From an uncultured Chloroflexia bacterium (lineage in GTDB: Bacteria > Chloroflexota > Anaerolineae > Anaerolineales > Villigracilaceae): a DNA stretch of 64,000 nucleotides. Numbering within the stretch: the first letter of the stretch is position 1; each line of letters starts with the position of its first letter. The DNA lies in NCBI GenBank assembly GCA_963793795.1, contig CAWCBN010000010.1, forward strand, positions 345,200-409,199, in the 5' to 3' direction. The translations under genes and the position numbers were made by a program. Below the pieces are notes generated by a model. It made no database searches. It saw nothing but the letters and a program-made list of their open reading frames with translations, and was not told the origin of the DNA. Shown one piece after another: positions 4,152-21,341 of the stretch.

Positions 4152-6168
4152 CTATTTCAGGGATTTTTCAAACCAGCGCAATATATGGTTCAACCGGGCG
4201 ATGCGCCGGTCGGTACGCCCCGTGCGCGAGAGCCCATGGAATTCATCAGGGAAACGTACAAATTCAGTATCCACGCCCATCCGCTTGAGGGCGACGAAAA
4301 CCTGTTCACTTTGCTCGATCGGGCAGCGCAGGTCGCCTTCATTGTGAATGACCAACGTGGGGGTTTTGGCATTCTTGATATATGCCATTGGCGACATGTC
4401 CCACCATTTCTGAAAATCCTTGAAGGGGGGTTCTGCTTCGACTTCGTGTTCGAAGGTCCAGTTGATATCGCTTGAGCCCCATTCGCTGATAAAATTGCTC
4501 ACGCAGCGTTGGGTCACGGCGGCCTTGAATCGCTCGGTATGACCGATGATCCACACAGTCATGTATCCGCCGTACGAACCACCTGTTACACCCATGCGTT
4601 TCACGTCTATGTAGGGTTTCTTGGCGATGAAATCAGCCCATGCCATCAAGTCGGCATAATCCGCACCCCCCCAGGAGCCCCAGATCGCCCGGGCGTGTTC
4701 TTCGCCATATCCGCGTCCACCCCTGGGATTGCAGAAATGAACCACAAATCCTTTCGAGGCAAGGTAGTTGAATTCGTGCATAAAGAACTTGCCATATTGC
4801 GTGATCGGTCCTCCGTGGATCTCGAGGATGGAGGGGTACTTCTTTTTTGGGTCGAAGTGTGGTGGATACATGATCCAACCCTGCAGATCATTCCCCGCAG
4901 CACCCTTGAACCAAACCTCCTCCACGCGGCTCATCTCCAGGCTGTCGAGAAGGTCGCGGTTCAGGCGTGTCAGGTGCCGGGTTCGTCCGCCATCCGTCAG
5001 CTCACGGACGTAGATCTGCCCAATATCCTCCATCTGACCGAAGAAATAGGCGATCCTGGTCTGCGCTTTATCGAGGGTGAACGCGCCGACCGCGCCACCC
5101 TCCCCCACCACATCGCACAGGTCGTCGCCACTCACCGCAATGGATTTGAGCACTGCTGAACCATGGATGGCTGCCTGGAAGTAGAGCCGCTTGCCGTCCA
5201 GCGACCAGGTTGGTCGCATCCATTCAGTGGATCCGCAATCATTGATCACATCCGGGGAGGTGTGGATATCATAGCGGGCAGTCAGGTTTTTGGCCGGTTT
5301 TCCTCCGCTAACAGGAAGGATCCATAGGCGAATTGTTCTTATAACTATAGCCGAAACCTTTACCTTCCACTCCAAAGAATGCAATCCATTTGCCGTCAGG
5401 AGAAAAGGAAGGATACCACTTGGCGCCTTCAGGAGTTTTCAGTTTACGCGCCTCTCCTCCACTCACCGGCTGCAGGAAGAGGTCATCCAGTTCCTCCTGG
5501 TCCGGATCCGCAGTCCGGTTGGAGAGGAAGGCAATGGATTGACCATCAGGGGAAAAGGCCGGGTTGACCTCATCCCACACCGGGTGGTCGGTGATTTGCC
5601 GGCCTTTGCCAGTGCGGACATCAATGATCCAGATGTGGGTGCGCTCCTTTGGCAGGTAACCATAACCATCCAGCTTATAAAACAAGCGGTCGTAATGGCG
5701 GGCAACTACGCCTAATTTTTTCTTCTGCTCATCCTTTTCGCGCTCCAGCACATCGGCATCCGTTTTTCGGACTGTACAAAGCAGTTTGCGCCCATCCGGT
5801 GACCAGGAGATTTCACCGATCTCGCCTTCGATGGAAGTCAACTTGCGTGCTTCGCCACCGTCGAAGGGGATCAGGAAAATTTGAGCAGGCTTGTCCTTGT
5901 TGGAGCGATTCGAAAGGAAAGCGATGATTTTCCCATCCGGGGACCAGCGTGGAGAAGTGTCAGACTGGTCGCCATGGGTGAATTGTCTCGGCGCTCCCCC
6001 TTCCACCGGCACCAGCCACAGGTTGCTGAATTTCTTCTCGGTTTTCCGCTCCACCCGCTGGATGCGGTAGATCACATGCTTCCCATCCGGGGAGAGGCGG
6101 GGTTCAAACAATAGTTCAATGCGGTAGAGATCTTCGGCTGTGATCAAGCGTTTCTTGGCTGCAGGCAT
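4152..6168 (-). CDS. S9 family serine peptidase (acylaminoacyl-peptidase / prolyl oligopeptidase-like), one frameshift
   Basis: N-terminal beta-propeller part (5308..6168) has repeated SPDG blocks. C-terminal alpha/beta hydrolase part (4152..5384) has the GGSYGG nucleophile motif and a C-terminal HG. The pieces join at ...GYSYKN / RLWILPVSGG near 5340 (one extra base). Confidence 0.9.
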
Positions 6169-6259: not shown

Positions 6260-7093
6260 TTATAAAAATGTCTCCAGCATGTTCCCCACCTCGACCATAT
6301 TGAAGACTGGTCCATCCACGCACACCAGTTTCTCTCCCAGGTTGCACCGCCCGCATTTTCCCAGTCCGCAGTGCATGCGCGCCTCCAGGGTGACGTAATT
6401 CCATTCGGGTAAAAATCCCATCCTTGCCAGCAATCGAGTCGTGTGATGGATCATCACCGGGGGACCGCAGGTGATGGTCGCTGTATTCCTGGATGCAGGC
6501 GAGACTTTCTCCAATAACTGTGTGATAAGGCCGGTTTCATGCGTCCAATCCGCATCCGCGTTATCCACCGTGAGGTGCAGTGAGGTATCGGGGGCGGACC
6601 GCCACTCGTCATATTCATCGGTGAATACCAGCAGGTCAGGGCGGCGGGCAGCCCACAGGATGGTCAAATGTCCGTACTCGGCGCGGTGTTCGAGTACATG
6701 CTGGATGACCGGTCGCAGCGGTGCCCCGCCAATACCGCCACCCAGTACCACCAGGTTCTTGCCCTTGAACTTGTCCATCGGGAAATGATTGCCCAGCGGT
6801 CCTCGCACCCCCACGATATCACCGTCGCCCAATTCATGCAGACCGGTTGTCACGGTTCCAAGCCTTGCCACCGCGAATTCGATCACCGGTCCCCTCTCCA
6901 CTGCATTGGCGATCCCAAAGGGAGCTTCTCCCAATCCAAAGGCCGAGACAAAAGCGAATTGTCCAGGTAGATGGTTCTGAAATGCCCTACCAGCACCGTT
7001 CAACAATTCCAGTCGAAATAACTTGATCTCAGATGCCAGGTCGCGCACCTCAACCAGTTTCGCCAGGTGGGGCATCATCGGATTCCAGCTCAT
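6260..7093 (-). CDS. FAD/NAD(P)-binding 2Fe-2S oxidoreductase subunit (sulfhydrogenase gamma / FlxA / AsrB-like)
   Basis: Ferredoxin-reductase-type fold blocks (LVVLGGGIGGAPL) and C-terminal cysteine cluster CGLGKCGRCNLGEKLVCVDGP. The start ATG overlaps the upstream stop (ATGA). Confidence 0.75.
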   Translation of the reverse strand: MSWNPMMPHLAKLVEVRDLASEIKLFRLELLNGAGRAFQNHLPGQFAFVSAFGLGEAPFGIANAVERGPVIEFAVARLGTVTTGLHELGDGDIVGVRGPLGNHFPMDKFKGKNLVVLGGGIGGAPLRPVIQHVLEHRAEYGHLTILWAARRPDLLVFTDEYDEWRSAPDTSLHLTVDNADADWTHETGLITQLLEKVSPASRNTATITCGPPVMIHHTTRLLARMGFLPEWNYVTLEARMHCGLGKCGRCNLGEKLVCVDGPVFNMVEVGNMLETFL

Positions 7094-8103
7094 CTTATTA
7101 ACTCCAGGTCTGCCAGAATTTCACTGATGTCCACACCCGCCGGGCAGAGTTCGATGCAACGACCGCAACCGGTGCAGGCAATCCCGGCACCCAGGTGGTA
7201 TTGTTCGGGAAAATACAAAACCTTGCACATGAACCTGTTGCGCAGGCGATCGCCTTTTTCCGGGCGGGCACGATGTCCACCCGCCACGCGGCGATAGTTC
7301 TCACCGGCGCAACTATCCCAGCAGCGGATGCGCTCGAACTGACCAGGTTGCAACGCTTCATCGCGAACGACAAAGCATCGGCAAGTGGGGCAAACGTATG
7401 CGCAGGCACGGCAGGAAAGGCATCGCTCCGAAATTCTCTCCCAATATTGATCAGAAAAATGCTCCTTCCACTTCTCTTTTGAAAGATTCTGAAAACCTGT
7501 TTCCGAACGCGTATGGCTGTCCTCAGTTTCCTTCCACTCCCCGCCGGGTATCAGGAAACGGCCTTTCTCCGTCACGGCTTCAACCAGAAAGCCCTCGCTG
7601 GTTTCGTACAACATGATGTCCATTCCGCTGGAGTCGTCCGGGGTGCCACCTGTCGAGGTACAGAAGCAACTGGGACCCAATTCACGGCAAGCCAGGCCAA
7701 TCAGGGTGGTATTCTGGCGCCGACGGGCATAAAAGGGATCAACAGGATGGGTATCCATGAACAGGTTGTCCAGCAGCAAGGCGCCCCGGGCATCACACGG
7801 GCGAACACCGAAGACAACCGTTTCCCATTCAGGATAATTCTCCTCAAGGGCGATTTCCTGCCCGGTCTTCTGAATGGTGAACAATCGCTCCGTTGGTGGA
7901 AAAAAGGCTTCCTTCAGAGAGAGAAGCGGGCGAGTGAACGATGTTGCTATCTCCCCGCTGGTTTTCACACGCTTGTACAGGAGAACTCCGGATTTTTTAC
8001 TGGGAGCGATCAGGTTGCGCGCGGCAGCGATCCCATCCAGCCAACCCTGCATTTCGGTCCTTGAGATAAGCCAGTGCTTATGAAGAAGCATCGCATTGCT
8101 CAT
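7090..8103 (-). CDS. 4Fe-4S dicluster subunit (sulfhydrogenase beta / FlxB / AsrA-like)
   Basis: Cluster motifs CLSCRACAYVCPTC and CTGCGRCIELCP. Start chosen at MSNAMLLHK (8103), 1 nt after the upstream stop, rather than the longer ORF start at 8181. Confidence 0.7.
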   Translation of the reverse strand: MSNAMLLHKHWLISRTEMQGWLDGIAAARNLIAPSKKSGVLLYKRVKTSGEIATSFTRPLLSLKEAFFPPTERLFTIQKTGQEIALEENYPEWETVVFGVRPCDARGALLLDNLFMDTHPVDPFYARRRQNTTLIGLACRELGPSCFCTSTGGTPDDSSGMDIMLYETSEGFLVEAVTEKGRFLIPGGEWKETEDSHTRSETGFQNLSKEKWKEHFSDQYWERISERCLSCRACAYVCPTCRCFVVRDEALQPGQFERIRCWDSCAGENYRRVAGGHRARPEKGDRLRNRFMCKVLYFPEQYHLGAGIACTGCGRCIELCPAGVDISEILADLELIR

Positions 8104-8104
8104 C

Positions 8105-9448
8105 TCAGCCTTCCTTGTACTCACCGGAAAGAACTGTAACCACCGGGGATGGCACAACATCCACCCCGGCAAGGAAACCAAATTCTTCTTCCATCACTTG
8201 CGTCATCCTGCGGTTGAGCAGGCTGATGGGGATCTCCATTGGGCAGGCACGCTCGCATTCATTGCATCCCACACATCGACCTGCCAGGTGATATGCACGG
8301 ATAAGGTGAAAAGTGCGTTTTTCATTGTTGCGAATACCCATGCCAATCCAGGTTGAATCTTCCTGCTCTGCCAGGCAGGTGGGACAGTTGCACATTGGAC
8401 ATGCCTGGCGGCAGGCATAGCAACGGATGCAGCGGTCAAATTGGGAGATCCAGAATTCCATGCGTTCAGAGGGTGCGGCCGTCATAAGCTCGGACACTTT
8501 TTCTTCACAGCAGGATGTTAAGCGGGGAATGTAACGCGAGGTGGCACCCCCGATCAAGGTGTCACATACCGTCGGAACCGCCTCCTGGCAGGTGATGCAG
8601 CGGGTCTGAAGATCTCCATCGTGGTCGCAAATCCCTTCACAGGCCACGCCCAGTACATGCAGCTGGTCGCGTTGGAACTGGTTTTCCGCCAGCATCACGT
8701 TGATCGCTTTGCTGTCACACGGCTTGACCACCACTGCCACCTTCTTGGGAGGCTCCTTGCCAGAGGCTTTCAACTTGGACGGCAGATAGGATGTCAGGTT
8801 GTTGGTCGCCTGTGGATTCCATACCAGGCGGGCGGCATCCTCAGGAGAATATGCAAACGACGGGCGCGTCCGTCCATTCCTCCCAACCTCGTACCCGATG
8901 ACGCACCCGACCTCACCATTGCCAAGCAGCTCTTTTGCCTTGGCGCGGATGGCGTCTGTTTTCCCCGCGCAGTCAGTGACGGGCATCGGGATGGAAGCAG
9001 TGATCGATGGTAGAGCCTCCATAACAGGCTCCCAGGCGCCCGGGGGAATGCGCCAGGACGCAGGTCCCAGTTGGCGGACTGATTCGGTGAACTCGGTCAC
9101 GATATGAGCGAAGTGTTCGCCCTCGGAAGCAGAGACCCAGTCCAGGCGCAGCCGTTCAGGTTCGAGCCCAACAAAGGTTAACAGGTTGTGGAGGAGAGGA
9201 AATCGTTTTGCAGCACGGTGATTGCCGGAGTCGTAATGGCATTCCCCGATGTGACAACCGAGAATGATCACACCGTCAGCCCCCTGGTCGAAGGTCCGAA
9301 TGACCAGCTCGGGGGATACACGTCCGGAACAAGGCACGCGCACCGCGCGGATATTCGCCGGGGATTTCATCCTCGCAATACCAGCAGTGTCGGCTCCCGT
9401 GTAGGAACACCAAGTGCAGAGGAAGGCGATGATCTTGGGTTCGTACAT
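8105..9448 (-). CDS. MvhD-domain / 4Fe-4S ferredoxin fusion protein (FlxD-FlxC-like)
   Basis: N-terminus IIAFLCTWCSYTGAD...VPCSGRV...GADGVIILGCHIGECHY matches the methyl-viologen-reducing hydrogenase delta subunit fold. C-terminus has CIRCYACRQACPMC and CVGCNECERACP. Confidence 0.8.
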   Translation of the reverse strand: MYEPKIIAFLCTWCSYTGADTAGIARMKSPANIRAVRVPCSGRVSPELVIRTFDQGADGVIILGCHIGECHYDSGNHRAAKRFPLLHNLLTFVGLEPERLRLDWVSASEGEHFAHIVTEFTESVRQLGPASWRIPPGAWEPVMEALPSITASIPMPVTDCAGKTDAIRAKAKELLGNGEVGCVIGYEVGRNGRTRPSFAYSPEDAARLVWNPQATNNLTSYLPSKLKASGKEPPKKVAVVVKPCDSKAINVMLAENQFQRDQLHVLGVACEGICDHDGDLQTRCITCQEAVPTVCDTLIGGATSRYIPRLTSCCEEKVSELMTAAPSERMEFWISQFDRCIRCYACRQACPMCNCPTCLAEQEDSTWIGMGIRNNEKRTFHLIRAYHLAGRCVGCNECERACPMEIPISLLNRRMTQVMEEEFGFLAGVDVVPSPVVTVLSGEYKEG

Positions 9449-9486: not shown

Positions 9487-12400
9487 TCAAGCCAGCGCGC
9501 CGATGATCTCAGCCACCAACTCGCGATCGTCAAAATGGATCAAGGTCACAGCCTTGTTTTGGCACGCGGCTGCGCACGTACCGCATCCTTTACAAAGGAA
9601 ACTGTTTACCTGTGCCACGGCATTGACCAACTCAACGGCGTGATACGGGCAGGCTGCCACACACTGCCCGCATCCGGCACATCTTTGCAAATCCACCTCG
9701 GCGATGGATGGGTCGAGGGCGATCATGCCCTGGTCCATGAGCGAGAGTGCTGCCGCCGAGGCGGCACCCGCCTGCGCCACGCTGTCTGGAATATCCTTGG
9801 GCGACTGGCATGCACCGGCAATGTAGATGCCTTCGCTGGCTGTTTCCACCGGGGCAAGCTTGGGATGCCGCTCGGAGAAGAATCCATCGCGTGTTCGGCT
9901 GATGCCAAATTTCGCCGCCACCTGCGCGGAATCCGCCTGCGGTTCGAAACCGGTCGCCAGGATGACCATATCCACATCCACGTGATCAGGCTGTCCATGG
10001 AAGGCTTCCGTCCAGGTAACTCGCAGGCCGTCATCCACGTGGGTGATATCATGCACCTTGCCGTGATGGAAGTTCACACCCATCTCTGCAGTGCGGTTGT
10101 AAAATTCTTCATATCCCTTGCCGAACGAGCGCATATCCCGATAGATCTCATGAACCTCGGCACCAATATACTCGTGGACCAATTGTGAAAACTTAAGTGA
10201 ATACATGCAGCAGGCGCGTGAACAATATTCGTTCGTGGTCGCATCGCGTGAGCCCACGCAATGGACAACAGCCACCCGTTTCGGTGTTCCCCCATCAGCG
10301 AGCAGTACTTTCCCGTTGGTGGGTCCGGAGGCATTGATCAGGCGTTCAAATTCAATGGCTGTCAGGATGTTCGCCAACTTTCCATGATTCAATTCGGGGA
10401 GGCGCGCGGGGTCAAAGTCACGAAAACCGGTCGCCAGGATGATGGTTCCCACCATAAACTCGTCATGGGTTTCTTTTGCATTGTGATCGATGGCTCCCCG
10501 GTCGCAGGCGGCTACGCATTCCAGGCACTCACCACAAGTCCCGCAGCGAACGCAGCGTTCAGCCTCGATGAGTGCTTCCTCTTCTGTAAGGGTCAGATCC
10601 ACCTCATTAAAATTGTGATAACGTTGCGCCAGCGGAATGGTGTGAATGCCAACCCTGTGTTTCCCGGAGGCCTCCCCATGAGCGATGCGCGTCCGCACTT
10701 CGGACTCGGTCAACGCCACGGTAGGTGGAAGGCTTGGCTCACTAATACCCGCAGCTCCCCGCAGGTAGCGATCCATGCAACGGGCGGCATGATGACCTTC
10801 ACCGATCGCATCCACCACGTAGAAGGTGGAACCGCGGTGAACATCACCGGCAACAAACACCCCCGGGAGCGTGGTCATCATCTCCTCATCGGAATCGATC
10901 CCGTTCCTGGCAAGCTTGACCAGCCCATCCTTAGGGAGAAATGACAGGTCGCAACCCTGACCGGTCGCCCAGATGACGATATCCGCCGGTAACACGTGCT
11001 CACTGCCGGGAAGTTCGTCGATCAGGATGCGCCCTTTTTCGTCGTAACCATGGTATTCCGTGCGCACGCATTTCACGCCGGTGACCTTGTCGTCCTCAAT
11101 GAGGATCTCCTTGAACATGGTGGCGCCGCACATTTTCACGCCTTCCTCTTCGGCGATCTCCACCTCCCACTCAAATCCGGTCATTTCACCCTTGGGCTTG
11201 CGGAAGATCATGCGGCATTCCCGTGCGCCGATGCGGATTGCGGAACGGGAACAGTCGAGGGCAACATTTCCGCCGCCGATGACCGCCACCCGTTTTCCGG
11301 TGAGATCGGGCGGGGTGCCAAGACATACCTGTTTGAGAAAAGGCAGGCTGAGCAGGTTGTCGGGATGATCCTTGCCCGGAATGTCCACCTTCTTGGCGAT
11401 ATGTGCACCCGAGGCAACCAGGACTGCATCAAATGGGTGAGCCGATGAACCCAGCCCGCCTGACAATAACCCGGGGATGTCATCGATCCAGGTATTGAGT
11501 TGCAATTCCACGCCCTCATCGAGGATCTGCTGGATCTCCCAATCGAGCATTTCATAGGGCAGGCGGTGGGGTGGGATGCCGACCCGGATCATGCCGCCTG
11601 CTTTCGGCTGGGCATCAAACACCTGCACCGCATGTCCGAGCCGCACCAGGTCAAGGGCAGCAGTCAGACCTGCCGGTCCGGCTCCGATCACGGCGACCTG
11701 TTTCCCCGTCGGCGTGGGTTTATGCTGGAAGGGAGTCCCGACGATGGACTTGTCGCGCATGTTCGGAAGCAGCTCACGATGAGCGTAAGCCCAATCCGCC
11801 ACGAAGCGCTTGATGCCCATGATATTGACGGGTTCATCCACCTTGCCGCGCGAGCAGGCAGCCTCACAGTTGCGGTTGCAAACACGTCCGCACACCGATG
11901 GGAAGGGATGCTCGCGGCGGATCGCCCAATAGGCATCCGCATAACGTTTCTGCCGGACCAGGGTGATATAACCCATGGCACGCTGGTCGGTGGGACAGGC
12001 AGCCCGGCACGGCGCCACACCCTTCTTGTCAATCACAAACGCACCGGGCACCGCCTGGGCTGAAAACCGGTAGGCTGCCTTGCGATTTGAGAGGCCGCGG
12101 TCAAACTCGTTGCTGACCTCCACCGGGCAAACGGAGGCGCAGTTGCTGCAGCCGGTACACTTGGTTTCATCCACGTAGCGCGGCTTGCGGCGGACCCGTA
12201 CCTGGAAATTTCCCACATAACCTGAAACAGACTCGATCTCGCTGTAAGCCAGGAGCTTTATTTTTGGGTGGCGTCCCACGGACACCATTTTCGGTGTAAG
12301 TATTCAGGCCGCACAGTCGAGCGTTGGGAAGGTCTTATACAGTTGGGCCATGTGCCCACCGATGCTCGACTCCCGCTCAACGAGATAGACCTGCTTCCCG

Positions 12401-12897
12401 GCGTCTGCCAGTTTTAGAGCCGCTTCGATACCCGCAATACCTCCACCGACGACAAGCGTGGCGGGAGTCATCTGTACCTGGCGCATGTCCAGCGGGTGAT
12501 GATAATGTACACGCTGGACCGCGGCAGAGACCAGAGAGCATGCTTTCGTGGTCGCCTGTTCCCGGTCCGCGACCACCCACGAGCAGTGTTCGCGGATGTT
12601 TGCCATCTGGAAGAAGAAAGGGTTCAACCCTCCCTCGGCGCAAGCCCGGCGAAAGGTCGGTTCATGCATCAGGGGCGAACAGGAGGCCACCACCACCCGG
12701 TTGACGCCCAGGTCCAGGATGTCCTGCTTGATGAGATCCTGTCCCGGGTCCGAGCACATGTAGGTGTAGTCGCGGGCAACGACCACGTTTTCCAATTTGC
12801 GGGCAAAATCGGTCACCGCGGCAACATCCACAGTCGCGGCGATATTCGTCCCGCAATGACAGACATAAACACCGGTTTTTATCTTGGAAAGATTCAT
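9487..12897 (-). CDS. hdrA: HdrA-like flavoprotein with inserted GltD/NfnB-like NAD(P)H module; predicted selenoprotein (TGA at 12304-12306 read as Sec)
   Basis: ORFs 12304..12897 and 9487..12288 are in the same frame, separated by TGA plus 5 codons (TFPTLDCAA-U-ILTPK-MVSVGRHP). HdrA hallmarks: VYVCHCGTNIA, GGGIAGIEAAL, C-terminal CAGCGQCVAACP / CKGCGTCAAAC. The internal module has PCRAACP, VCGRVC, VAVIGAGPAGL and VAVIGGGNVALD. Confidence 0.85.
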
Positions 12898-12967: not shown

Positions 12968-14953
12968 TCATGCCAGGGATAAAATACCATCAATCTCCGC
13001 CATGAGCTGGTCATTGGTGAAGCCGTTCTGGACGGCTGCACCAGCCGGACAGGCGGCAACGCAGGCTCCGCATCCCTTGCACAATACCTCGTTAACCTGC
13101 GCGACTTGTTTTCCATTCCATTCGACCATCGAGACAGCGCCATAAGGACACAGCCCTTCGCAGGTGTGACAGGCGCCACATTTTTCTGCAACGATGTATG
13201 AAGTGAACGGCTCCAGGTCCACCGTACCATGATCGAGAAGGGAGATTGCCGCGGCAGCTGCTGCTCCGCCGTGGGCGACACTATCCGGGATGTCCTTCGG
13301 TCCCTGGCATGTGCCCGCCAGGAAAATACCGTCACTCATGGTTTCCACCGGTGCCAGCTTGGGGTGCTTCTCCAGGAAGAATCCATCCGGGCTGCGGCTG
13401 ATCCCAAACCGGGCACCCACCTCGTGCTGGTCGTCCTGGGGTTCCATGCCGGTGGAAAGGACGACCATGTCCACGGCCGTCTTGAGCGTTTGCCCGCTAT
13501 ACACATCCCTGGCAATGACCGCTAACCGCCCATCAGTCTGCTCGACGCGAATGTCGCCATCGAAGCGGGCGAAATGAACTCCATGGTCCTCGGCGCGGTG
13601 GTAAAAGTTCTCGTAATCCTTTCCAAAGGCGCGCATATCCCGGTAGAACTCCACCACTTCCGCACCCACGTATTCCCTTACCAAGGTGGCTAGTTTTAAG
13701 GAATACATGCAGCAAACGCGTGAGCAATATTCGTTTTCAACTCCACGTGAGCCGACACAATGCAGGATTGCCACCTTCCTTGGTTTTTCTCCATTCTTGA
13801 GCAACACCCTGCCGCTTGTCGGACCGCCGGTATTGATCAGTCGTTCCATCTCCATGCCGGTGAAAACATTCGGCAAGGTGCCATAGCCATATTGAGCAGC
13901 CCGGTGCGGGTCAAAGTCGCTAAAACCGGTCGCCAGGATGATCGTGCCAACTTCGATCTCCTCGTGTTGTTCCACCTGTTCAAAGTCGATCGCCCCCACC
14001 GTGCAGAATTTTTCACAGGCGCGGCATTTCCCGGACTTGAAATAGGCGCAGTTCACGGTGTCGATGACCGGGACGCGCGGCACCGCCTGCGGGAATGGGT
14101 AATAGATGGCGGCACGGTTGCCCCACCCAAGGTCGAACTCGGAGGGGATCTTCTTCCACGGGCATTTATCAATGCAGGTTCCGCAACCGGTGCACAAGGA
14201 CTCGTTCACATAGCGCGGCTTGCGGCGAACGGTCACGGTGAAGTTGCCCACATAGCCGGCAACGTTTTCGACCTCGCTGTAGGTCATCAGCTTGATGTTG
14301 GGGTGGCGTCCCACGGACACCATCTTGGGGGTGAGTATTCAGGCTGCGCAATCGAGGGTTGGAAATGTTTTGTACAGGCGCGACATGTGCCCGCCGATGG
14401 ACGGTTCGCGCTCCACCAGGGTTACCTGTTTGCCCGAATCAGCCAGGCGGAGGGCTGCCTCGATCCCGGCGATCCCCCCTCCGACAACCAGCGCGGCCTG
14501 CTTCAGCCCCACCTGGCGCATTTCCAGCGGCACCTGCCAGCCCACGCGCCGCACAGCAGCCGCCACCAGCGCCTTGGCTTTCTCCGTTGCGGCAACGGGA
14601 TCCGCAGTGACCCACGAACAGTGCTCACGGATGTTGACCATCTGGAAGAGGAAGGGATTTAAGCCTGCCTCGGCGCAGGCACGCCGGAAGGTGCCCTCAT
14701 GCATGTTCGGACTGCAGGAGGCCACAACAATGCGGTCCAACCCTTCCTTGCGGATATCTTCAGCAATGAACGCCTGGCCGGGGTCTGAGCACAGGTAGGC
14801 ATAGTGGCGGGTAACGGTCACATGGGGCAGGGTAGCAGCAAATTGGGTGACTGCTTCCACATCCACAGTTGCGGCAATGTTCGTGCCACAGTGGCAAACA
14901 TAAACGCCGACGCGGGGCGAACCCTGCTTCGGCGCGGGTTGGGAGATCGTCAT
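12968..14953 (-). CDS. hdrA: Heterodisulfide-reductase subunit A-like flavoprotein; predicted selenoprotein (TGA at 14339-14341 read as Sec)
   Basis: ORFs 14339..14953 and 12968..14323 are in the same frame, separated by TGA plus 5 codons (TFPTLDCAA-U-ILTPK-MVSVGRHPNI). Canonical HdrA layout of about 661 aa: CHCGTNIA, GGGIAGIEAAL, inserted ferredoxin CTGCGTCIDKCP, C-terminal CGACHTCEGLCP / CKGCGACVAACP. AAGGAGA lies before the ATG. Confidence 0.9.
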
Positions 14954-15850: not shown

Positions 15851-17372
15851 TCATAACAAGTTCAATCGCGGTCGATATTGGATTGCCTCCCCCAGGTGAG
15901 GGGGTTGGATGGTCTCGCTTCCCGCCAGGTCAGCGATCGTGCGGGCGAGCTTCAGCACGCGGTGATAGGCGCGCGGCGGAGAGTTGGAGCTGGTTCATCG
16001 CCGCATGCATCAGGGATTGACCTGTTTCATCCAGCGCACAGAACTTGCGCACTTCCGCCGGGCGCATCTCGGCATTGCAGGTCAATCCGTCAGACCCGAA
16101 ACGCCTGCGCTGGCGATCACGCGCCAGCTCCACGCGGGCACGGACGGACGCCGAGGGTTCGCCGGTGCGGGTATCGGATAATTTTTCAAATTCAACGCGT
16201 GGCACCTCGATGTGGATGTCGATGCGGTCGAGCAGGGGACCGGAGATGCGCTTCTGGTACTTGGTCACCACCATCGAGGAACAGGTGCAGGGTTTCAGCA
16301 GGTCGCCATAATAGCCGCACGGGCAGGGATTCATGGCGGCAACCAGCTGGAAATTGGCGGGGAAGGTCAGCGAGCCCTGGGCGCGGCTGATGGTGACGAC
16401 CTTGTCCTCCAGCGGCTGGCGCAGCACCTCGAGCACGCGCATGCCGAACTCAGGCAGCTCGTCCAGGAAGAGAACGCCGCGGTGAGCCAGGGAGATCTCG
16501 CCCGGATGGGGCCAGTTGCCTCCGCCGACCAGGCCGGCATGGCTGATGGTGTGGTGCGGCGAGCGATAGGGCCGGTGGCGCAGGAGCGGAGTCCCGGGGG
16601 GTAACTGGTCGGCAACGGAATAGATGCGGGTCACATCCAGCGCTTCTTCGATGGGCATTTCGGGCAGGATGCCGGGGAGGGCACGCGCCAGCAGGGTCTT
16701 CCCCGCCCCGGGAGGGCCGACCATCAAGACGTTATGCCCACCCGCGGCAGCCACTTCCATGGCACGCTTGACATGCTCCTGTCCCTTGATCTCGCTGAAG
16801 TCGGTCGGAAGCATCAGGGGGGCGTCGGGCACCTCCTGGCGCTGGTAGGGAGGGATGAGCTCCCTTCCGGCAAGGTGGTTGTAGAGCTGCGCCAGCGAGG
16901 AGACGGGGATCACTTCCAGGTCGGGGATGAGGGCTGCCTCGGCGGCATCCATGGCGGGAACGACGATGCGCTTGAAGCCGTTCTGCCGGGCGGTGGCAGC
17001 CATGGGCAGCACGCCGCGGGCATGGCGCACGCCGCCATCCAGGGAAAGTTCGCCGACCACGAGCATGCTTTCGGCCACCTGCGGAGGGAGGATGCCGGTG
17101 TAGATCAGCACGCCGAGGGCGATGGGCAGGTCGTATGCCGGGCCTTCCTTGCGCACCGTGGCGGGAGCCAGGTTGACCACCAGGCGGCGGCGAGGGAAAG
17201 GCACCCCGGCGTTGCGCACGGCGGCCTGGACACGCTCGCGGCTCTCCTGGACGGCTGCGTCGGGCAGACCAACGACGGTCATGCCGGGGAGGCCCTGGGT
17301 GTAATCCACTTCCACTTCGACGATCACCCCATCCAGGCCGATCACTGCGCAGGAGAAGACGCGGGCAAGCAT
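15851..17372 (-). CDS. comM: YifB/ComM family Mg-chelatase-like ATPase, one frameshift near the 3' end
   Basis: Start [15 protein letters not shown]. Walker A GPPGAGKT, Walker [11 protein letters not shown], then PCPCGYYGD. The C-terminus [43 protein letters not shown] is recovered by removing one base in the GCGCGC run near 15972-15976. The long upstream extension in the ORF track (to 17951) is low-complexity and not believed. Confidence 0.9.
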
Positions 17373-17399
17373 CCGTCTAGTGTAGACGAGGATGGCGGA

Positions 17400-17720: not shown

Positions 17721-18196
17721 GAACGAATGGGATGTCACTGCCAATTCCGAGAGATCGCATTTGAGGAACATCGAGGAACAATTAATCTTAAGCTTTCCTG
17801 GTGGAAAGAACGCTTGAATGGTCCCATGGTTTGATAGGAATTCGGAGAATGGCTCGGTGAGGAAGGAGGTCAGATTCATGGTTGCAGGAGAGAAAAAAAG
17901 ACGGCAGGGAAGAAACAGCCTTCCCGTGCCGATGGAGGGATTATAACACAAATGTTCTAATTGGATAAAGGGGAAAAAACACTCATTTGCTTTAAGTACT
18001 AATCGAAAATGCTTTCTTCAACAGATTGGCTGGGTGAGGGCACACCAGCAGGGCTTCCCCGTTCAGGGATGTCAGACCATCAGTACGTCTTGGACAAAAA
18101 GCAGGTTATTTTCATTCCCATTCTTTTATATCTATACTGTAGGGGATGCTATATAATGATCAGATAGCAATCTTAATTGACACGTGAAAGGATTTC

Positions 18197-19367
18197 ATGG
18201 ACAGATTATTTAAACAACCATTTGACGACATTGGGGAGAATGAATTAAGGATATTGTTGATAGAAAAGTTCGAGAATATGTTAGTTTGGATTATAAACAA
18301 TTGTATAGCAATAATCATAAGGGGATCGTAGATCTTCTTACAGATGTTACTGCAATGGCAAATTCTAGGCGGGGTATATCATTATTGGCATTGAAGAAGA
18401 TTTCAGGCGCATCCGATGGTACTCCTAAATGTATTGTTGGTATCGAGAATGGAGATATTGAAGCCAATCGGATACAAAATGTGTGTTTTGATTCTATTGA
18501 TGAAATAATTATTGGCCTTCGTGTCCGAGACATTCCATTAAGCAATGGAAAGCATTGTGTAATTATCCAAATCCCCAATAGTGTAAAAAAACCTCATATG
18601 GTGTTGTACGAAACACCGTTTATTTTCTACCAGACATGGAAGATCGAATATAAGAATGGACATGAAACAGGTTAGGACATGGTGATTAGCATGACTTCAT
18701 ATCAGACATCATTACAATCATTTATTGAGAACCGTGTGAAGGAAAATTTAGAATTCGCTCACTCTGTCCCTTTATTCTATTCATGGCCACTCCAATTTAC
18801 GTGGGCGAGAAAAGTTGGATCCCCTTCAAGAAAAATATCGGAACCTTTTTGATAATGAATATGAGCAGTATATACAAGATTATCAATATGATGGTGTGTA
18901 TGCAGGTAAAACCCATCCCAGGATATTTGGCATTGAAGGAATAATCCAAATCTCCATCTCCAGATAACATTCCTCTGAAGCGTTTACGACTTTATAGAAA
19001 TGGGCATTTCGAATTTTACAGAAATAATGTTCCTTATCCAGATGAGAATCGGCCCCAAAACGAATGCCAATATCCCCGTATCTCATTGTTGCAGAATCAT
19101 TAAATTTCTTATCTGTTATGCGACAAGTAATTACGATTTCCGAAATTACCGATCCTTTAGCGATTACATTAATCTTGGATCTGTATGTCGAGACTTCAAT
19201 TGCACGATAGATATAGATTGCAATCTGAAAATTTAGTATGGAATGATATATTATTACAAATAGATATAACCGTGACCGATCTTGATAAATTGGAAGAAAT
19301 TGCTTCTTATATAATGGATCGAATATACAATTCCTATGGATATGAAAAAGAACCTCCACTTCGATGA
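18197..19367 (+). pseudogene. AlbA_2 (Schlafen-like putative DNA-binding) domain protein, at least 5 frame disruptions
   Basis: Pieces found in three frames: MDRLFKQPFDDIGENELRILLIEK / VREYVSLDYKQ...VTAMANS / AGYIIIGIEED / DGTPKCIVGIENGD...GKHCVIIQIPNSVKKPHMV / RHGRSNIRMDMKQVR / ...EEIASYIMDRIYNSYGYEKEPPLR. This follows the AlbA_2 pattern (EFK...AfaN..GG.iiiGv...P). One break is a shortened A-run. Confidence 0.5.
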
Positions 19368-20081
19368 AAATATGAAATTCAAATTAAGAGATGGTATCCG
19401 TTTAGATAAGTAATTAGAAGAAATCAATCAATTAAGACAGGCTGGGCCGGAAAAGGGCGGTGTAATCCTGGCAAAATGGCTATTCGAGGTGATCATGAAG
19501 GGATGGATAGGATCGTATAATTTGTGAATTTTATTGGTTGGAAAATGTGTCGGGTATTTATGCTTATCCTTTACACTTGTCCTAGCACAGGGGTAGGATA
19601 TATAATGAATTAACCAAATATCTAGAAAACCGCTTTGCTATATTTAGCGAAAAGGAAATCCTATGTCCTGTTTGAGTGGAATACTATTTATCTTAGGATT
19701 GCCTCTTCGTACCGTTTACGCCCTCCAGAAAAAACTGAACAAAAGAATAAGTTATGGCTCGTTATAGGTATAATTTTCATAGCCGTGGGGGGTGTTTTAT
19801 TATTCTTCAAATGACCAAAACTGCACAAATTCTTGCGGTGATCCTAAGAATTGCATAGATTTGCATTAATTCGATATCTTTACTCAATCGAACAAAAAGA
19901 CCGATGCTTCTCGATACTTTTTGTCCTGACTCCTACTATAAGAGGTAAATACTCAGTATTCATTGTAGAAATGCTAGAATTGCAATGTAGATCAACCTTA
20001 CAAATCGCCTTGGATAACTACTATTATCGTATAATTATTAGTTACAATCGAGGGATTAGTTTTCTTCATCGAAGTAAACTT

Positions 20082-20664
20082 ATGAACGTTTATCGCCAAA
20101 AACTACTAAATACGGTCTTGTTCTTTGCTATAGAAATGAAATATCTAAAATTAACTAAGTTGATGAAGCTTCTTAACTTCTTCGACTTTGAGCACTTTAA
20201 GGAACAGGATATCCATCAATAGGTTTAGAATATTATGCCTTTGCCAAAGGTCCAGTCCCAAAGAAATTCTGGTTAGAAATAAAAGACGGAGAACCCCCAG
20301 CGGACATGCTGGATAAGTGGCAATTTTAGAAAAACGGCACTGGGATTTTAGAAAAAAGTAATTGAATTTATTCCAAAGCCTAAAGTGCTAGTGGACTACA
20401 CGTATATCATGTGGTCGTGAAGAAAGCAATACTTGAAAAGTTGGCGTTTATTTACAAAGACGCGGATGCTGCAACAATGTCGAAAATTTCACATGAAGCT
20501 GAGAAGCCTTGGGAAATTACAATAAAGGAAAAAGGCTTAAACGCAGAGATTGATTATATGTTAGCTATTGACGAGAGCTCTCCAATAAAACGTGAAGAAG
20601 GTCGGAAAATTTGCATGACCTTTTTGAAATTATGAAAGCGTTTGATATTGAACCTGCGAAATAA
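20082..20664 (+). pseudogene. Panacea (DUF4065, SocA-like) antitoxin-domain protein, at least 3 frame disruptions
   Basis: MNVYRQKLLNTVLFFAIEMKYLKLTKLMKLLNFFDFEHFKE / GYPSIGLEYYAFAKGPVPKKFWLEIKDGEPPADMLDKWQF matches the DUF4065 core (K.qKLLYf.Df.h...G..itG..Y.A...GPVP). The C-terminal piece is ...SHEAEKPWEIT... / MKAFDIEPAK. Confidence 0.65.
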
Positions 20665-20667
20665 AAT

Positions 20668-21094
20668 ATGCCACAACCCGGGGATATTATCTTTTTTTCT
20701 CTAAGGAGTATACATTTGAAGATGGGAGTAAAGGGGATAAATTGTTTGTTGTCCTAAATACTCCTGATCTTGAAGAACCTTGTTCTGTTTTAAAAAACCA
20801 CCTCTCTCAACCAGCAAGGTATTTTCATTGTGTCAGGGGATGCAATAGTAATGACAGGTGTTTTTTTGCCCCGAAATCATGGCAGGTGTGCTTTAAAGTG
20901 GATACCTATATTCAACTTCCACAGATAATTGAATTTCCAGCTGCCAATCTTTTAAGAGATCGTTTTGCGGAATTATTAATTTCATACCCCCGCTTTCAGC
21001 TGATTGTCTTGCACAACTAAAAAGCTGTTTGGCAACTTTCAAGGATGATATATCTCAAACCCATTGGGCATTTATTTATAAAGCGAAATCATAA
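20668..21094 (+). pseudogene. Putative toxin partner of the Panacea antitoxin (unassigned family), frame-disrupted
   Basis: ATG lies 3 nt after the antitoxin stop. Sequence MPQPGDIIFF / SKEYTFEDGSKGDKLFVVLNTPDLEEPCSVLK..SQPARYFHCVRGCNSNDRCFFAPKSWQVCFKVDTYIQLPQIIEFPAANLL / ...LSADCLAQLKSCLATFKDDISQTHWAFIYKAKS. Assignment is by position only. Confidence 0.35.
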
Positions 21095-21119
21095 TCTCTC
21101 TTTTTTATTTGAGACATTG

Positions 21120-21341
21120 AATTCTATTTTGAAACGATTGGAAGGAATTCCGACTATAAAGGTGGCTCGGGTTGGCAAATCCGGAGCGATTTATTGCTTG
21201 TTATTCTTGCGCCGATTTTGAAGGGATACGTCGGAAAGGGCAACGACGGTCATACTGGAAATGCCCTAGGTGTAATCCACTTGCACATCAACAATTACAC
21301 CATCTAAAACGATCCCAGCAGGAATATACTCTGGTAAGCAT
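21120..21341 (-). pseudogene. Ghost 5' fragment of a second, low-GC comM/yifB homologue (about residues 1-75)
   Basis: Minus strand reads MLTRVYSC / AGIVLDGVIVDVQVDYT*GISSMTVVALSDVSLQ / AINRSGFANPSHLYSRN. The intact comM has [67 protein letters not shown]. The fragment contains a stop and frameshifts. Confidence 0.6.

What the first reader, a model, noticed from the sequence alone, without database searches (positions are those of the whole stretch)
10560..12027. About 480-aa GltD/NfnB-like NAD(P)H module inserted into the ferredoxin insertion site of HdrA
- Compared with the adjacent canonical paralogue, the large HdrA carries an extra segment. It sits between ...AFVIDKKG and ERCVRCGTCGECLECVAACD.
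- The segment has the hallmarks of glutamate-synthase small-subunit / NfnB-type proteins: PCRAACP...VCGRVCNRNCEAAC for the N-terminal Fe-S sites, then two dinucleotide folds VAVIGAGPAGL and VAVIGGGNVALD, and VFVAGD.
- This would put an NAD(P)H site directly on a flavin-based electron-bifurcating scaffold.
- From memory, similar large fusions were named HdrL in Desulfobacterium autotrophicum. They remain biochemically uncharacterised.
Basis: partly seen in the sequence, partly recalled or inferred. Interest (0 to 1): 0.65.

Follow-up and report, generated by a model that had tools for sequence, protein, structure and literature searches.

The report
HdrA with built-in NAD(P)H module (HdrL)
The gene really encodes a heterodisulfide-reductase A flavoprotein with a glutamate-synthase-small-subunit-like NAD(P)H module spliced into its ferredoxin domain; this architecture is already described (HdrL, "type III HdrA") and common in metagenomes, but I found no report that any example has been studied biochemically.

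Summary
On the minus strand, 12897-9487 encodes a 1136-aa HdrA read through one in-frame TGA (selenocysteine, 12306-12304). Removing aa 294-787 leaves 644 aa that align end to end with crystallised HdrA (E 2.6e-213). The excised ~490 aa is a GltD/NfnB-type module (Fer4_20 + Pyr_redox_2). It sits exactly between the two cysteine motifs of HdrA's inserted ferredoxin domain.

It is not a chimera. More than 100 independent assemblies carry the same architecture, as do at least 73 of the 150 best-matching 50%-identity clusters, across many phyla.

What this analysis adds:
- The module is closest to the non-bifurcating NADPH module of Bfu-type NfnA/StnC. It has the same permuted segment order and a Lys where NfnB has its Glu cluster ligand.
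- Both hdrA and hdrL are selenoprotein genes with a conserved SECIS-like hairpin.
- In Anaerolineales the operon is hdrA-hdrL-mvhD/flxC-flxB-flxA with no hdrBC. HdrL loci from six other lineages all carry hdrBC.

Inferred function: an NAD(P)H port on HdrA's ferredoxin arm, possibly forming an Hdr-based NADH/NADPH/ferredoxin transhydrogenase. Verdict: new member of a known kind, moderate interest.

The parts
9487..12897 (-). hdrL: 1136-codon HdrA-type flavoprotein gene with Sec198 and a nested GltD-like module
   Evidence: Translation. Pfam. PDB hits to HdrA in two stretches flanking hits to NfnA/StnC/NfnB. Gene callers split it at the TGA into 197 + 933 aa.
12304..12306 (-). In-frame TGA read as selenocysteine (aa 198)
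   Evidence: Aligns with Cys197 of 5odc_A. Homologues P0017 and P0032 have Cys there ('DCAACILTPKM'). This Cys is conserved in the diverse HdrL sequences that cover the position.
12269..12287 (-). SECIS-like hairpin (8 bp, GUG loop) starting 16 nt after the UGA of hdrL
   Evidence: Fold. The same hairpin is kept at nucleotide level in all 7 TGA-bearing hdrA/hdrL genes examined. It is disrupted in the 2 Cys-codon genes despite near-identical protein sequence.
10543..12018 (-). Inserted GltD/NfnB-type module, aa 294-785
   Evidence: Excision restores a full-length collinear HdrA. Best PDB sequence hits: 9bov_A 1.1e-83, 9n5u_A 6.8e-76, 8oh5_C 2.1e-66, NfnB 4ylf_B 1.7e-62. Foldseek ranks the same targets first.
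11779..12018 (-). Fe-S part of the module (Fer4_20-like, aa 294-373): Cys297, 301, 340, 344, 348 (plus the variable Cys336) and Lys363
   Evidence: Pfam Fer4_20. These Cys are at least 90% conserved in a 93-sequence alignment. Lys363 aligns with StnC Lys170 and with the Glu in NfnB 'GRLERFV' (PMC10482914).
10804..11700 (-). FAD and NAD(P)H dinucleotide folds (aa 400-698): GAGPAG, Arg445, GGGNVA, Arg566-Lys567, VFVAGD
   Evidence: Pfam Pyr_redox_2 7.3e-48. Motif positions. Alignment to NfnB/StnC.
10543..10752 (-). Linker plus the segment that is N-terminal in NfnB/GltD (RYHNFNEVDLTLTEEEALIEAERCVRC), supplying Cys782 and Cys785
   Evidence: The HMMER alignment to 4ylf_B splits in two: query end vs chain 15-44, query start vs chain 46-461. 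The order is collinear with 9bov_A and 8oh5_C. Cys782/785 (C579/C582 in P0001 numbering) are invariant or nearly so.
12124..12159 (-). First Cys motif (CTGCSNCASVCP) of HdrA's inserted ferredoxin domain, upstream of the insert
10504..10536 (-). Second Cys motif (C-GE-C-LE-C-VAA-C) of the inserted ferredoxin domain, directly after the insert
   Evidence: Aligns with 'C-IE-C-GL-C-AKV-C' of 5odc_A. Invariant or nearly invariant in the 93-sequence alignment.
12968..14953 (-). Canonical hdrA paralogue (661 codons), Sec codon at 14339-14341, SECIS-like hairpin 14304-14322
   Evidence: 61% identical to HdrL minus its insert.
8105..9448 (-). MvhD (FlpD) domain fused to a HydB/FlxC-like Fe-S protein (447 aa)
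   Evidence: Pfam FlpD 4.1e-51 plus Fer4_8. NCBIfam VhuD / HdrA2 C-terminus. The C-terminal 317 aa are distantly related to the next gene.
7090..8106 (-). HydB/ShyB/AsrA-like Fe-S protein (FlxB-like)
   Evidence: NCBIfam ShyB 2.4e-54, HydB 2.6e-45. Pfam Fer4_22.
6260..7093 (-). HydG/AsrB/PyrK-like FAD/NAD(P)H/[2Fe-2S] protein (FlxA-like), a second pyridine-nucleotide site
   Evidence: NCBIfam PRK08345 4.7e-61, HydG 2.7e-49. Pfam NAD_binding_1 and DHODB_Fe-S_bind.

Best explanation
What it is (shown). A selenocysteine-containing HdrL / 'type III HdrA'. It is a complete HdrA: N-terminal cluster domain, FAD-binding thioredoxin-reductase fold with the Lys409 and Glu356 equivalents, inserted ferredoxin domain and C-terminal ferredoxin domain. 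The loop between the two cluster motifs of the inserted ferredoxin domain carries a ~490-aa GltD-type module holding FAD, an NAD(P)H site and two [4Fe-4S] sites. The module is circularly permuted relative to stand-alone NfnB/GltD: PCxxxCP comes first, and the NFxEV...RCxxC helix comes last and runs straight into HdrA's second ferredoxin motif. It shares that order, and a Lys at the odd-ligand position of the FAD-proximal cluster, with the NADPH module of Bfu-type NfnA/StnC.

How it most likely works (inferred).
- The module acts as a non-bifurcating NAD(P)H dehydrogenase, converting between two-electron and one-electron transfer.
- The GGGNVA and Arg566-Lys567 motifs favour NADPH.
- Its two clusters connect in series with the two clusters of the inserted ferredoxin domain. 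This hard-wires a pyridine nucleotide to the arm of HdrA's bifurcating FAD that normally serves free ferredoxin.

What the operon may do (more speculative, about 0.35-0.4).
- The conserved five-gene operon offers three redox ports and no HdrBC. The ports are NADP(H) on HdrL, ferredoxin on the intact inserted domain of the partner HdrA, and NAD(H) on the FlxA-like subunit, fed through FlxB/FlxC-MvhD.
- The complex would then be an Hdr-based Nfn/Stn-like NADH/NADPH/ferredoxin transhydrogenase.
For: Identity
- Collinear HdrA after excision of the insert.
- Pfam, NCBIfam and PDB hits.
- AlphaFold model with pLDDT 92 and pTM 0.85. Foldseek top hits are 9bov_A, 9n5u_A and 8oh5_C (525-559 aligned columns), then NfnL/NfnB (TM 0.78-0.79) and HdrA.

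Cofactor sites
- 7 conserved Cys in the module, 4+4 Cys in the split ferredoxin domain, and conserved Arg445.
- The Lys409 and Glu356 equivalents are present (criterion from PMC12054007).

Non-bifurcating analogy
- Lys363 aligns with StnC Lys170 and CsNfnA Lys170, where NfnB has its Glu ligand.
- In those enzymes the GltD-type FAD lies at the end of the electron chain and does not bifurcate (PMC10482914; PMC11829005).

Arm assignment
- The inserted ferredoxin domain is the low-potential output socket in Hdr and in BCRII (PMC9012536; bioRxiv 10.64898/2026.04.10.717634).

Operon
- hdrA-hdrL-FlpD/FeS-Fer4_22-NAD_binding_1 is conserved in five independent Anaerolineales loci, and none of them has a CCG/HdrB gene.
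- No CCG-domain protein was found among the window's larger ORFs scanned.
- HdrL loci of six other lineages all carry HdrC + HdrB and lack an Flx-like trio. In those loci the GltD module is the only recognisable donor site, which supports an NAD(P)H input/output role.
Against: - Nothing here is biochemical. Nucleotide specificity is read from motifs only. The nearest relatives have 'CRGMR' rather than 'FRK', and other clades have an acidic 'C-L-E'. The 2025 survey argues for NADH.
- Wiring NAD(P)H (about -320 mV) to the low-potential arm makes thermodynamic sense only if the roles of the arms are re-assigned. That cannot be seen from sequence.
- HdrBC or another high-potential partner may be encoded elsewhere in the genome. 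Only 64 kb of this genome and 20-kb flanks of relatives were seen.
- Arg445, which contacts flavin N5 in NfnB, is retained, so bifurcation at the GltD flavin is not excluded.
Cluster-to-cluster distances were therefore not measured.
Confidence: 0.6

Rival explanations
1. The HdrL complex serves an unlinked HdrBC-like or other high-potential acceptor, as HdrL does elsewhere. NAD(P)H, entering through the GltD module and/or the Flx-like module, would be bifurcated at the HdrA flavin to ferredoxin and to a disulfide or another acceptor (DsrC-like protein, fumarate-reductase-type partner). The enzyme would then be a Flx-Hdr-type NAD(P)H:heterodisulfide/ferredoxin oxidoreductase, not a transhydrogenase.
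For: - All six HdrL loci from other lineages have HdrC (Fer4_8) + HdrB (CCG) adjacent, mostly with MvhD.
- S. fumaroxidans HdrABC/HdrL is abundant only with sulfate (PMC5947623).
- HdrL and HdrA here keep the thioredoxin-reductase-domain cluster motif (CVGSRD...CSRACC), the cluster that hands electrons to HdrC in canonical complexes (PMC9012536).
Against: - No CCG-domain gene lies in the operon, among the ORFs scanned in the 64-kb window, or in the 20-kb neighbourhoods of five related Anaerolineales loci.
- The operon instead carries a second HdrA and a complete Flx-like NAD(P)H module.
Confidence: 0.25
2. The inserted module keeps NfnB-like bifurcating chemistry. HdrL would then hold two bifurcating flavins in series joined through their low-potential Fe-S arms, with NADPH bifurcated at the GltD-type FAD. 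This is the suggestion Chadwick et al. made for ANME-1.
For: - The module is homologous to NfnB/NfnL (E 1.7e-62, TM 0.78-0.79).
- The N5-contacting Arg is conserved (Arg445).
- An NfnA-like (PyrK/HydG-family) protein is encoded in the operon.
- Coupling of two bifurcation modules in one complex has a precedent in BCRII.
Against: - Lys, not Glu, sits at the proximal-cluster ligand position.
- The topology and the best matches are those of StnC/Bfu-NfnA, where the equivalent FAD was shown not to bifurcate.
- By homology the PyrK-like subunit pairs with the HydB-like subunit rather than with the GltD module.
- No second exit from the GltD flavin is evident.
Confidence: 0.08
3. The TGA is a true stop, so there are two separate genes (197 aa and 933 aa) or a pseudogene and no 1136-aa protein is made.
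For: - Gene callers split the gene at the TGA.
- No tRNA-Sec or sel genes lie in the window.
Against: - The TGA aligns with a universally conserved cluster-ligand Cys.
- Cys-codon orthologues are continuous 1132-1133-aa ORFs.
- The same TGA plus a conserved downstream hairpin occurs in 7 genes, and the hairpin is lost in the 2 Cys versions.
- HdrA and HdrL are known selenoproteins (PMC2702500).
Confidence: 0.02
4. The insertion is an assembly chimera joining an hdrA gene and a gltD-like gene.
For: The window's own reads could not be found, so coverage at the junctions of this assembly is untested.
Against: - The same junctions, in frame and with shared Cys motifs, occur in more than 100 independent assemblies and in many phyla.
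- Contigs from other samples span both junctions.
- The AlphaFold model is confident across both junctions.
Confidence: 0.01

Closest known systems
HdrL of Desulfobacterium autotrophicum HRM2 and S. fumaroxidans Sfum_0824 (Strittmatter 2009, PMC2702500; Sedano-Nunez 2018, PMC5947623)
   Same: One polypeptide combines HdrA with a glutamate-synthase-small-subunit-like NAD(P)H domain. It is followed by an mvhD gene. Some members are selenoproteins. Function has been inferred only.
   Different: - The Desulfobacterota-type representatives seen here (about 1475-1530 aa, e.g. P0122) lack the N-terminal HdrA domain and carry a long C-terminal extension. They sit next to HdrB/MvhD.
- The window protein is a complete HdrA plus insert (1136 aa). 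It sits with a second hdrA and an Flx-like trio, without hdrBC.
- I did not align the D. autotrophicum sequences themselves.
ANME-1 HdrA9-11 (Chadwick 2022, PMC9012536) and 'type III HdrA' (PMC12054007, 2025)
   Same: A ~500-aa NfnB/GltD-like insertion interrupts the inserted ferredoxin domain of an otherwise HdrA1-like protein. The Lys409 and Glu356 equivalents are kept. Predicted structures place the GltD module beside the inserted ferredoxin domain.
   Different: - Those are archaeal, and only nine sequences were surveyed. They were described as rare and recent.
- Here the architecture is bacterial (Anaerolineales) and turns out to be widespread.
- Gene contexts differ: mvhADG or multiple hdrA genes there, hdrA + Flx-like genes here.
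NADPH module ('NfnL-like'/GltD domain) of Bfu-type NfnA (C. saccharolyticus 9BOV, T. sibiricus 9N5U) and StnC (S. ovata 8OH5)
   Same: - Best sequence matches (E 1.1e-83 to 2.1e-66) and best structural matches.
- Same permuted segment order, with the NFxEV..RCxxC segment after the Rossmann folds.
- Lys at the proximal-cluster ligand position and 7 conserved Cys.
- The module is nested inside another Fe-S protein.
   Different: - The host scaffold is NuoG/FdhA-like there and HdrA here.
- StnC Cys114 is Ala here, and HdrL has an extra Cys336.
- The bifurcating partner is a HydBC-type FMN there and would be the HdrA FAD here.
NfnB/NfnL of NfnAB (T. maritima 4YLF, P. furiosus 5JCA)
   Same: Same fold and cofactor set: FAD, NADPH site and two [4Fe-4S] clusters. 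Identity is 33-34%, TM 0.78-0.79, and the N5 Arg is conserved.
   Different: - Circularly permuted relative to it.
- Lys instead of the Glu cluster ligand.
- No dedicated NfnA bound by homology.
- Covalently embedded in HdrA.
FlxABCD-HdrABC of Desulfovibrio (Ramos et al. 2015; from memory, cited as ref. 52 in PMC7382037)
   Same: A HydG-like NAD(P)H/FAD/[2Fe-2S] subunit, HydB-like Fe-S subunits and an MvhD-like subunit are encoded with hdrA.
   Different: There is no hdrBC. FlxC and FlxD are fused. There are two HdrA-type genes, one of which carries its own NAD(P)H module.

Membership tests
HdrA (bifurcating flavoprotein subunit of soluble heterodisulfide reductase) | Full-length collinear homology to structurally characterised HdrA | tested here: met
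   With aa 294-787 removed: 5odc_A residues 5-648, one stretch, E 2.6e-213. HdrA is recovered by Foldseek.
HdrA (bifurcating flavoprotein subunit of soluble heterodisulfide reductase) | FAD fold with the Lys409 and Glu356 equivalents, and Cys ligands for the N-terminal, TrxR-domain, inserted-Fd and C-terminal-Fd clusters (including Cys197) | tested here: met
   GGGIAG, CCMYSLK, IEFERL, CVGSRD, 4+4 Cys in the inserted domain, 4+4 Cys in the C-terminal domain. Position 197 is Sec.
HdrA (bifurcating flavoprotein subunit of soluble heterodisulfide reductase) | Encoded with, and acting with, HdrB/HdrC | tested here: not met
   No CCG-domain gene in the operon, among the window ORFs scanned, or in five related loci. 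The rest of the genome was not seen.
HdrA (bifurcating flavoprotein subunit of soluble heterodisulfide reductase) | Flavin-based electron bifurcation activity | not testable with these tools
   Needs enzyme assays.
HdrL / type III HdrA | GltD-type FAD/NAD(P)H domain inside the inserted ferredoxin domain of a single HdrA polypeptide | tested here: met
HdrL / type III HdrA | An mvhD gene immediately downstream (Strittmatter 2009) | tested here: met
   A gene with a FlpD domain lies at 9448-8105, 38 nt downstream. The same holds in relatives.
NfnB/NfnL (bifurcating subunit of NfnAB) | GltD-like fold with FAD, an NADPH site and two [4Fe-4S] clusters | tested here: met
   4ylf_B 1.7e-62, 5jca_L 7.6e-62. 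TM 0.78-0.79.
NfnB/NfnL (bifurcating subunit of NfnAB) | Glu ligand on the FAD-proximal [4Fe-4S] cluster | tested here: not met
   Lys363 ('GIKRFV') aligns with the Glu of 'GRLERFV'. Lys is the commonest residue found at this position in HdrL clusters.
NfnB/NfnL (bifurcating subunit of NfnAB) | Native segment order (helix + CxxC at the N-terminus) and a stand-alone subunit paired with NfnA | tested here: not met
   The order is permuted and the module is embedded in HdrA. The operon's PyrK-like protein groups with HydG/AsrB and has a HydB-like neighbour.
Bfu-type NfnA/StnC NADPH module (non-bifurcating) | Permuted GltD module with Lys at the proximal-cluster ligand position and 7 Cys | tested here: met
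   Collinear alignment of query 3-501 to 9bov_A 103-574 and 8oh5_C 103-573. Lys363 matches Lys170. Conserved Cys set.
Bfu-type NfnA/StnC NADPH module (non-bifurcating) | Host is a NuoG/FdhA-like subunit bound to a HydBC-type bifurcating core | tested here: not met
   The host is HdrA. There are no NuoF/NuoE-like genes in the operon.
Bacterial selenoprotein gene | In-frame UGA aligned to Cys in orthologues, plus a downstream SECIS hairpin | tested here: met
Bacterial selenoprotein gene | Sec machinery (selABCD, tRNA-Sec) in the genome | tested here: inconclusive
   There are no tRNA genes in the window, and no sel-gene families appeared among the larger ORFs scanned against Pfam. The rest of the genome was not available.
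FlxABCD-HdrABC | FlxA-, FlxB/C- and FlxD(MvhD)-like genes together with hdrABC | tested here: inconclusive
   Flx-like components are present by family hits. hdrBC is absent. Flx itself was recalled from memory, not aligned.

The most novel reading that the evidence does not exclude
In Anaerolineales, the conserved hdrA-hdrL-mvhD/flxC-flxB-flxA operon, which lacks hdrBC, would encode a third structural type of ferredoxin-dependent transhydrogenase after NfnAB and StnABC/Bfu-Nfn. An HdrA/HdrL heterodimer would couple NADPH (through the permuted GltD module on HdrL), NAD(H) (through the FlxA-like subunit via MvhD) and ferredoxin (through the intact inserted domain of the partner HdrA) at an HdrA-type bifurcating flavin.
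Probability: 0.25. Interest if true: 0.7.

Novelty: new member of a known kind. Interest (0 to 1): 0.35.

Why it matters
HdrA is one of the few flavin scaffolds known to bifurcate electrons. Which partner plugs into its low-potential ferredoxin arm decides what chemistry a cell can drive near the thermodynamic limit. HdrL-type proteins hard-wire a pyridine nucleotide to that arm, and they turn out to be common in sediment, wetland and subsurface bacteria and archaea. I found no report that any has been purified.

The Anaerolineales version is a clean test case. It forms a compact five-gene operon with only NAD(P)H and ferredoxin ports. That makes one question directly testable by expression and assay: can an HdrA flavin run an Nfn-like transhydrogenase reaction?

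The practical annotation point is smaller but real. Gene callers split both selenoprotein genes at the UGA and label the pieces 'FAD-dependent oxidoreductase' or 'heterodisulfide reductase subunit A'.

Tried and rejected
I used the 933-aa window ORF (P0001) for that search and for AlphaFold, so the N-terminal 203 aa are not in the model.
2. Read-coverage test of the assembly. No public run holds the window; the best runs share at most 12% of sampled words. Laying contigs of four related runs gave only fragments of relatives. These span the junctions but say nothing about this assembly.
It therefore returned mostly ordinary GltD-like genes and no close relative, and could not serve as a census.
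4. Rfam found no curated SECIS family here, only a T-box. MFE z-scores of the hairpin regions are unremarkable (-1.2). The SECIS call rests on the comparison of TGA genes with Cys genes.
5. Model coordinates are not exposed, so inter-cluster distances and Fd-site occlusion could not be measured.
6. Single or multiple insertion events. A neighbour-joining tree of the HdrA core and separate identities for insert and core gave no clean answer. My 'no insert' label also included gene fragments.
7. Pereira et al. 2011 could not be retrieved.
8. Plain NfnB membership was rejected: permuted order and Lys instead of Glu.


Full report
**1. What is in the sequence**

A minus-strand operon runs from 14953 to 6260. 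It contains:
- a canonical hdrA (661 codons);
- the large hdrA-type gene of the finding (12897-9487, 1136 codons);
- a gene for an MvhD (FlpD) domain fused to a HydB/FlxC-like Fe-S protein (9448-8105);
- a HydB/ShyB/AsrA-like Fe-S protein (about 8106-7090);
- a HydG/AsrB/PyrK-like FAD/NAD(P)H/[2Fe-2S] protein (7093-6260).

Both hdrA-type genes contain a single in-frame TGA in the motif FPTLDCAA-TGA-ILTPKM. This is why ORF finders and public gene calls split the large gene into 197 + 933 aa.

**2. Checking the observation**

- Pfam places Fer4_20 at aa 295-373 and Pyr_redox_2 at aa 400-698 of the large protein. The paralogue has nothing comparable there.
- NCBIfam aligns the segment to GltD-family models: PRK12771 at 2.8e-120 and gltA at 3.6e-76.
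- The cleanest test was to delete aa 294-787. The remaining 644 aa then align in one uninterrupted stretch to residues 5-648 of crystallised M. thermolithotrophicus HdrA (5odc_A, E 2.6e-213).
- At the join, HdrL reads 'IDKKG|GTCGECLECVAAC' where HdrA reads 'IDKE--HCIECGLCAKVC'.
- The excised protein is 61% identical to the neighbouring HdrA.

The insert therefore lies exactly between the CxxCxxCxxxCP motif and the CxxCxxCxxxC motif of HdrA's inserted ferredoxin domain. The only correction is at the C-terminal boundary. 'ERCVRC' belongs to the insert, so the insert is aa 294-785/787 (nt ~10537/10543-12018).

**3. Not an artefact**

- The 120 listed homologues (65-88% identical) from NCBI, JGI, ENA and Logan assemblies have the same architecture. 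Most are cut at the same TGA. A few, from Anaerolineales bacteria, are continuous 1132-1133-aa ORFs with Cys at that position.
- An exhaustive HMMER scan of 1.84 billion cluster representatives gave 150 best clusters. Of these, 73 carry both junction motifs 446-489 aa apart.
- Named members come from Syntrophaceae, Dehalogenimonas sp. WBC-2, Caldisericota, Asgard archaea and Pseudomonadales.
- A partial genome scan added Saprospiraceae, Thermoleophilia, Bacteroidales, Thermotogae and Desulfatitalea.
- The window's own reads could not be located. Contigs of relatives, including metatranscriptome contigs, span both junctions.

**4. What kind of GltD module it is**

Against the PDB, the insert matches best the NADPH modules of:
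- Caldicellulosiruptor NfnA (9bov_A, 1.1e-83);
- Thermococcus sibiricus NfnA (9n5u_A, 6.8e-76);
- Sporomusa StnC (8oh5_C, 2.1e-66).

Stand-alone NfnB/NfnL score lower (about 1e-62).

The alignments show why. In NfnB the segment 'RRRNFEEVALGYTLEEALEEAQRCLQCPT' (residues 15-44) immediately precedes 'PCVSGCP'. In HdrL the chain enters at 'PCRAACP' and runs through the Fe-S part and both Rossmann folds. About 45 linker residues follow. Only then comes 'QRYHNFNEVDLTLTEEEALIEAERCVRCGT' (17/30 identical to the NfnB segment), and the chain then continues directly into HdrA's second ferredoxin motif.

The module is thus circularly permuted relative to NfnB/GltD and collinear with NfnA/StnC. The permutation puts its entry and exit points side by side, which is what allows it to be nested in a loop. 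The same cassette order occurs in other fusions met in passing (L019, L064, L085).

An AlphaFold2 model of the 933-aa ORF, built on a 93-sequence alignment, is confident throughout (pLDDT 92.1, pTM 0.85, no segment below 50). Foldseek ranks 9bov_A, 9n5u_A and 8oh5_C first (525-559 columns). HdrA structures and NfnL/NfnB (TM 0.78-0.79, rmsd ~3 A) follow.

**5. Cofactor sites**

Across 93 diverse sequences the following are invariant or at least 90% conserved:
- the module's Cys297, 301, 340, 344, 348, 782 and 785;
- the four Cys of each half of the split ferredoxin domain;
- Arg445 (the N5-contacting Arg of NfnB);
- the FAD and NAD(P)H glycine motifs.

The residue aligned with the Glu ligand of NfnB's proximal cluster, and with Lys170 of StnC and CsNfnA, is Lys363. 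Lys is the residue most often found at that position in HdrL clusters.

In StnABC and CsNfnABC the equivalent FAD sits at the end of the electron chain. It was shown or argued not to bifurcate, and Lys170 is functionally important (PMC10482914; PMC11829005).

The HdrA part keeps the Lys409 and Glu356 equivalents used as bifurcation markers.

The NAD(P)H site reads GGGNVA with Arg566-Lys567 where NfnB/StnC have YRR, which suggests NADPH. Close relatives have CRGMR and other clades have an acidic C-L-E, so specificity probably varies.

**6. Selenocysteine**

- The TGA aligns with Cys197 of HdrA. According to Chadwick et al., this Cys ligates the N-terminal cluster of the partner protomer on the low-potential path.
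- An 8-bp hairpin with a GUG loop starts 16 nt after the UGA. It is conserved at nucleotide level in all seven TGA-bearing hdrA/hdrL genes examined (the window, L003, L004).
- The hairpin is disrupted in the two Cys-codon genes of L001, although the encoded peptide is almost the same.
- No tRNA-Sec lies in the window.

**7. Gene context**

- Five independent Anaerolineales loci keep the order hdrA-hdrL-FlpD/FeS-Fer4_22-NAD_binding_1/DHODB_FeS, often with 4-nt gene overlaps. Two of them have an extra hdrL. None has a CCG (HdrB) gene within 8-9 kb.
- The rest of the window holds housekeeping genes: dnaA, pheT, coaX, glycosyltransferases. No CCG-domain protein appeared among the ORFs scanned.
- By contrast, HdrL loci from Dehalogenimonas, Syntrophaceae, Pseudomonadales, an unnamed clade, Asgard archaea and Caldisericota all have HdrC + HdrB next door. 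These loci mostly also have MvhD, and they lack an Flx-like trio.

**8. Mechanism**

Shown: the domain composition, cofactor motifs, topology and contexts described above.

Inferred: the module oxidises or reduces NAD(P)(H) at a non-bifurcating FAD. It passes single electrons through its two clusters into the two clusters of the inserted ferredoxin domain, and so reaches the HdrA flavin. That domain is the low-potential output socket in Hdr and in the BCRII complex. The 2025 survey reached the same general idea for archaeal 'type III HdrA'.

In lineages where HdrL sits with HdrBC and no other donor module, NAD(P)H must be the donor.

In the Anaerolineales operon the only ports are NAD(P)H on HdrL, NAD(P)H on the FlxA-like subunit, and ferredoxin on the partner HdrA. 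The simplest reaction is then an Nfn/Stn-like transhydrogenation. I hold this at about 0.35-0.4 given the identity, or 0.25 overall.

The main rival is an unlinked HdrBC-like partner (0.25). Double bifurcation at both flavins is less likely given the Lys and the StnC-like character of the module (0.08).

**9. Comparison and novelty**

The architecture is published under three names: HdrL (2009), HdrA9-11 (2022) and type III HdrA (2025). I found no biochemical or structural study of it.

The finding is therefore a real, correctly interpreted new member of a known kind. The points that may be new are incremental:
- the StnC/NfnA-type permuted topology and the Lys ligand;
- the breadth of distribution, far beyond the nine archaeal sequences called 'rare and recent';
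- the Sec/SECIS pair in Chloroflexota;
- the Anaerolineales operon variant without hdrBC.

I did not verify that none of these has been noted elsewhere.

Noticed in passing
window 14339-14341 and 12304-12306 (TGA codons); hairpins 14304-14322 and 12269-12287, minus strand: Both tandem hdrA-type genes are selenoprotein genes split by gene callers. A conserved 8-bp hairpin with a GUG loop follows each UGA. It is lost in the Cys-codon orthologues of L001.
   Followed up: yes
window 12968-14953 vs 9487-12897; L001, L003, L004: The HdrA core of HdrL (aa 799-1062) is 58% identical to the adjacent canonical HdrA but only 38-53% identical to HdrL of other phyla. A neighbour-joining tree puts Anaerolineales HdrA as sister to Anaerolineales HdrL. 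This suggests lineage-specific duplication with gain or loss of the insert, or concerted evolution of a heterodimer pair.
   Followed up: partly
L004 and L005, 2772-11805: Some Anaerolineaceae relatives carry three tandem genes, hdrL-hdrA-hdrL, all with the in-frame TGA, ahead of the same Flx-like genes.
   Followed up: no
L086-L091 (Dehalogenimonas sp. WBC-2 CP011392.1, Syntrophaceae, Pseudomonadales, unnamed clade, Asgard, Caldisericota): HdrL in other lineages always sits beside HdrC/HdrB genes. In the Caldisericota locus MvhD is fused to HdrL, and fumarase, malic enzyme and a fumarate-reductase-like flavoprotein flank it.
   Followed up: partly
L019 6306-9422; L064 7467-9665; L085 7023-9905: The same permuted GltD cassette (PCxxxCP ... 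NFxEV..RCxxC) is fused to a NuoF-like protein, to a [2Fe-2S] N-terminal domain and, in Pseudobutyrivibrio, again lies between two CxxCxxCxxxC-type motifs. It looks like a mobile NAD(P)H plug-in for Fe-S proteins.
   Followed up: partly
HdrL cluster representatives P0121-P0270: The residues after the second beta-strand of the NAD(P)H fold fall into two classes, 'YRR' and an acidic 'C-[LI]-E'. This hints that different HdrL clades use NADPH or NADH.
   Followed up: partly
window 18001-22000: A low-GC stretch (0.36-0.41 against about 0.55-0.60 elsewhere) with short, unannotated ORFs lies beside a ComM/Mg-chelatase-like gene (15930-17399, minus strand). It is possibly an inserted mobile or defence island.
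   Followed up: no
window 4152-6168 (minus) and 56899-59537 (minus): An S9 prolyl-oligopeptidase-like gene and a pheT-like gene each appear as two overlapping or adjacent ORFs. These may be frameshifts or sequencing errors.
   Followed up: no
window 27162-28532 (minus); 61169-61428 (minus): dnaA is present, so the window may lie near the replication origin. A T-box leader (94.7 bits, Rfam gathering score 93) lies upstream of the pheS/pheT-like region.
   Followed up: no
window 42283-53091 (minus): Two large DUF2298 membrane proteins (649 and 1284 aa) and two PMT_2-type glycosyltransferases form a cluster, in a region of strongly positive AT skew.
   Followed up: no
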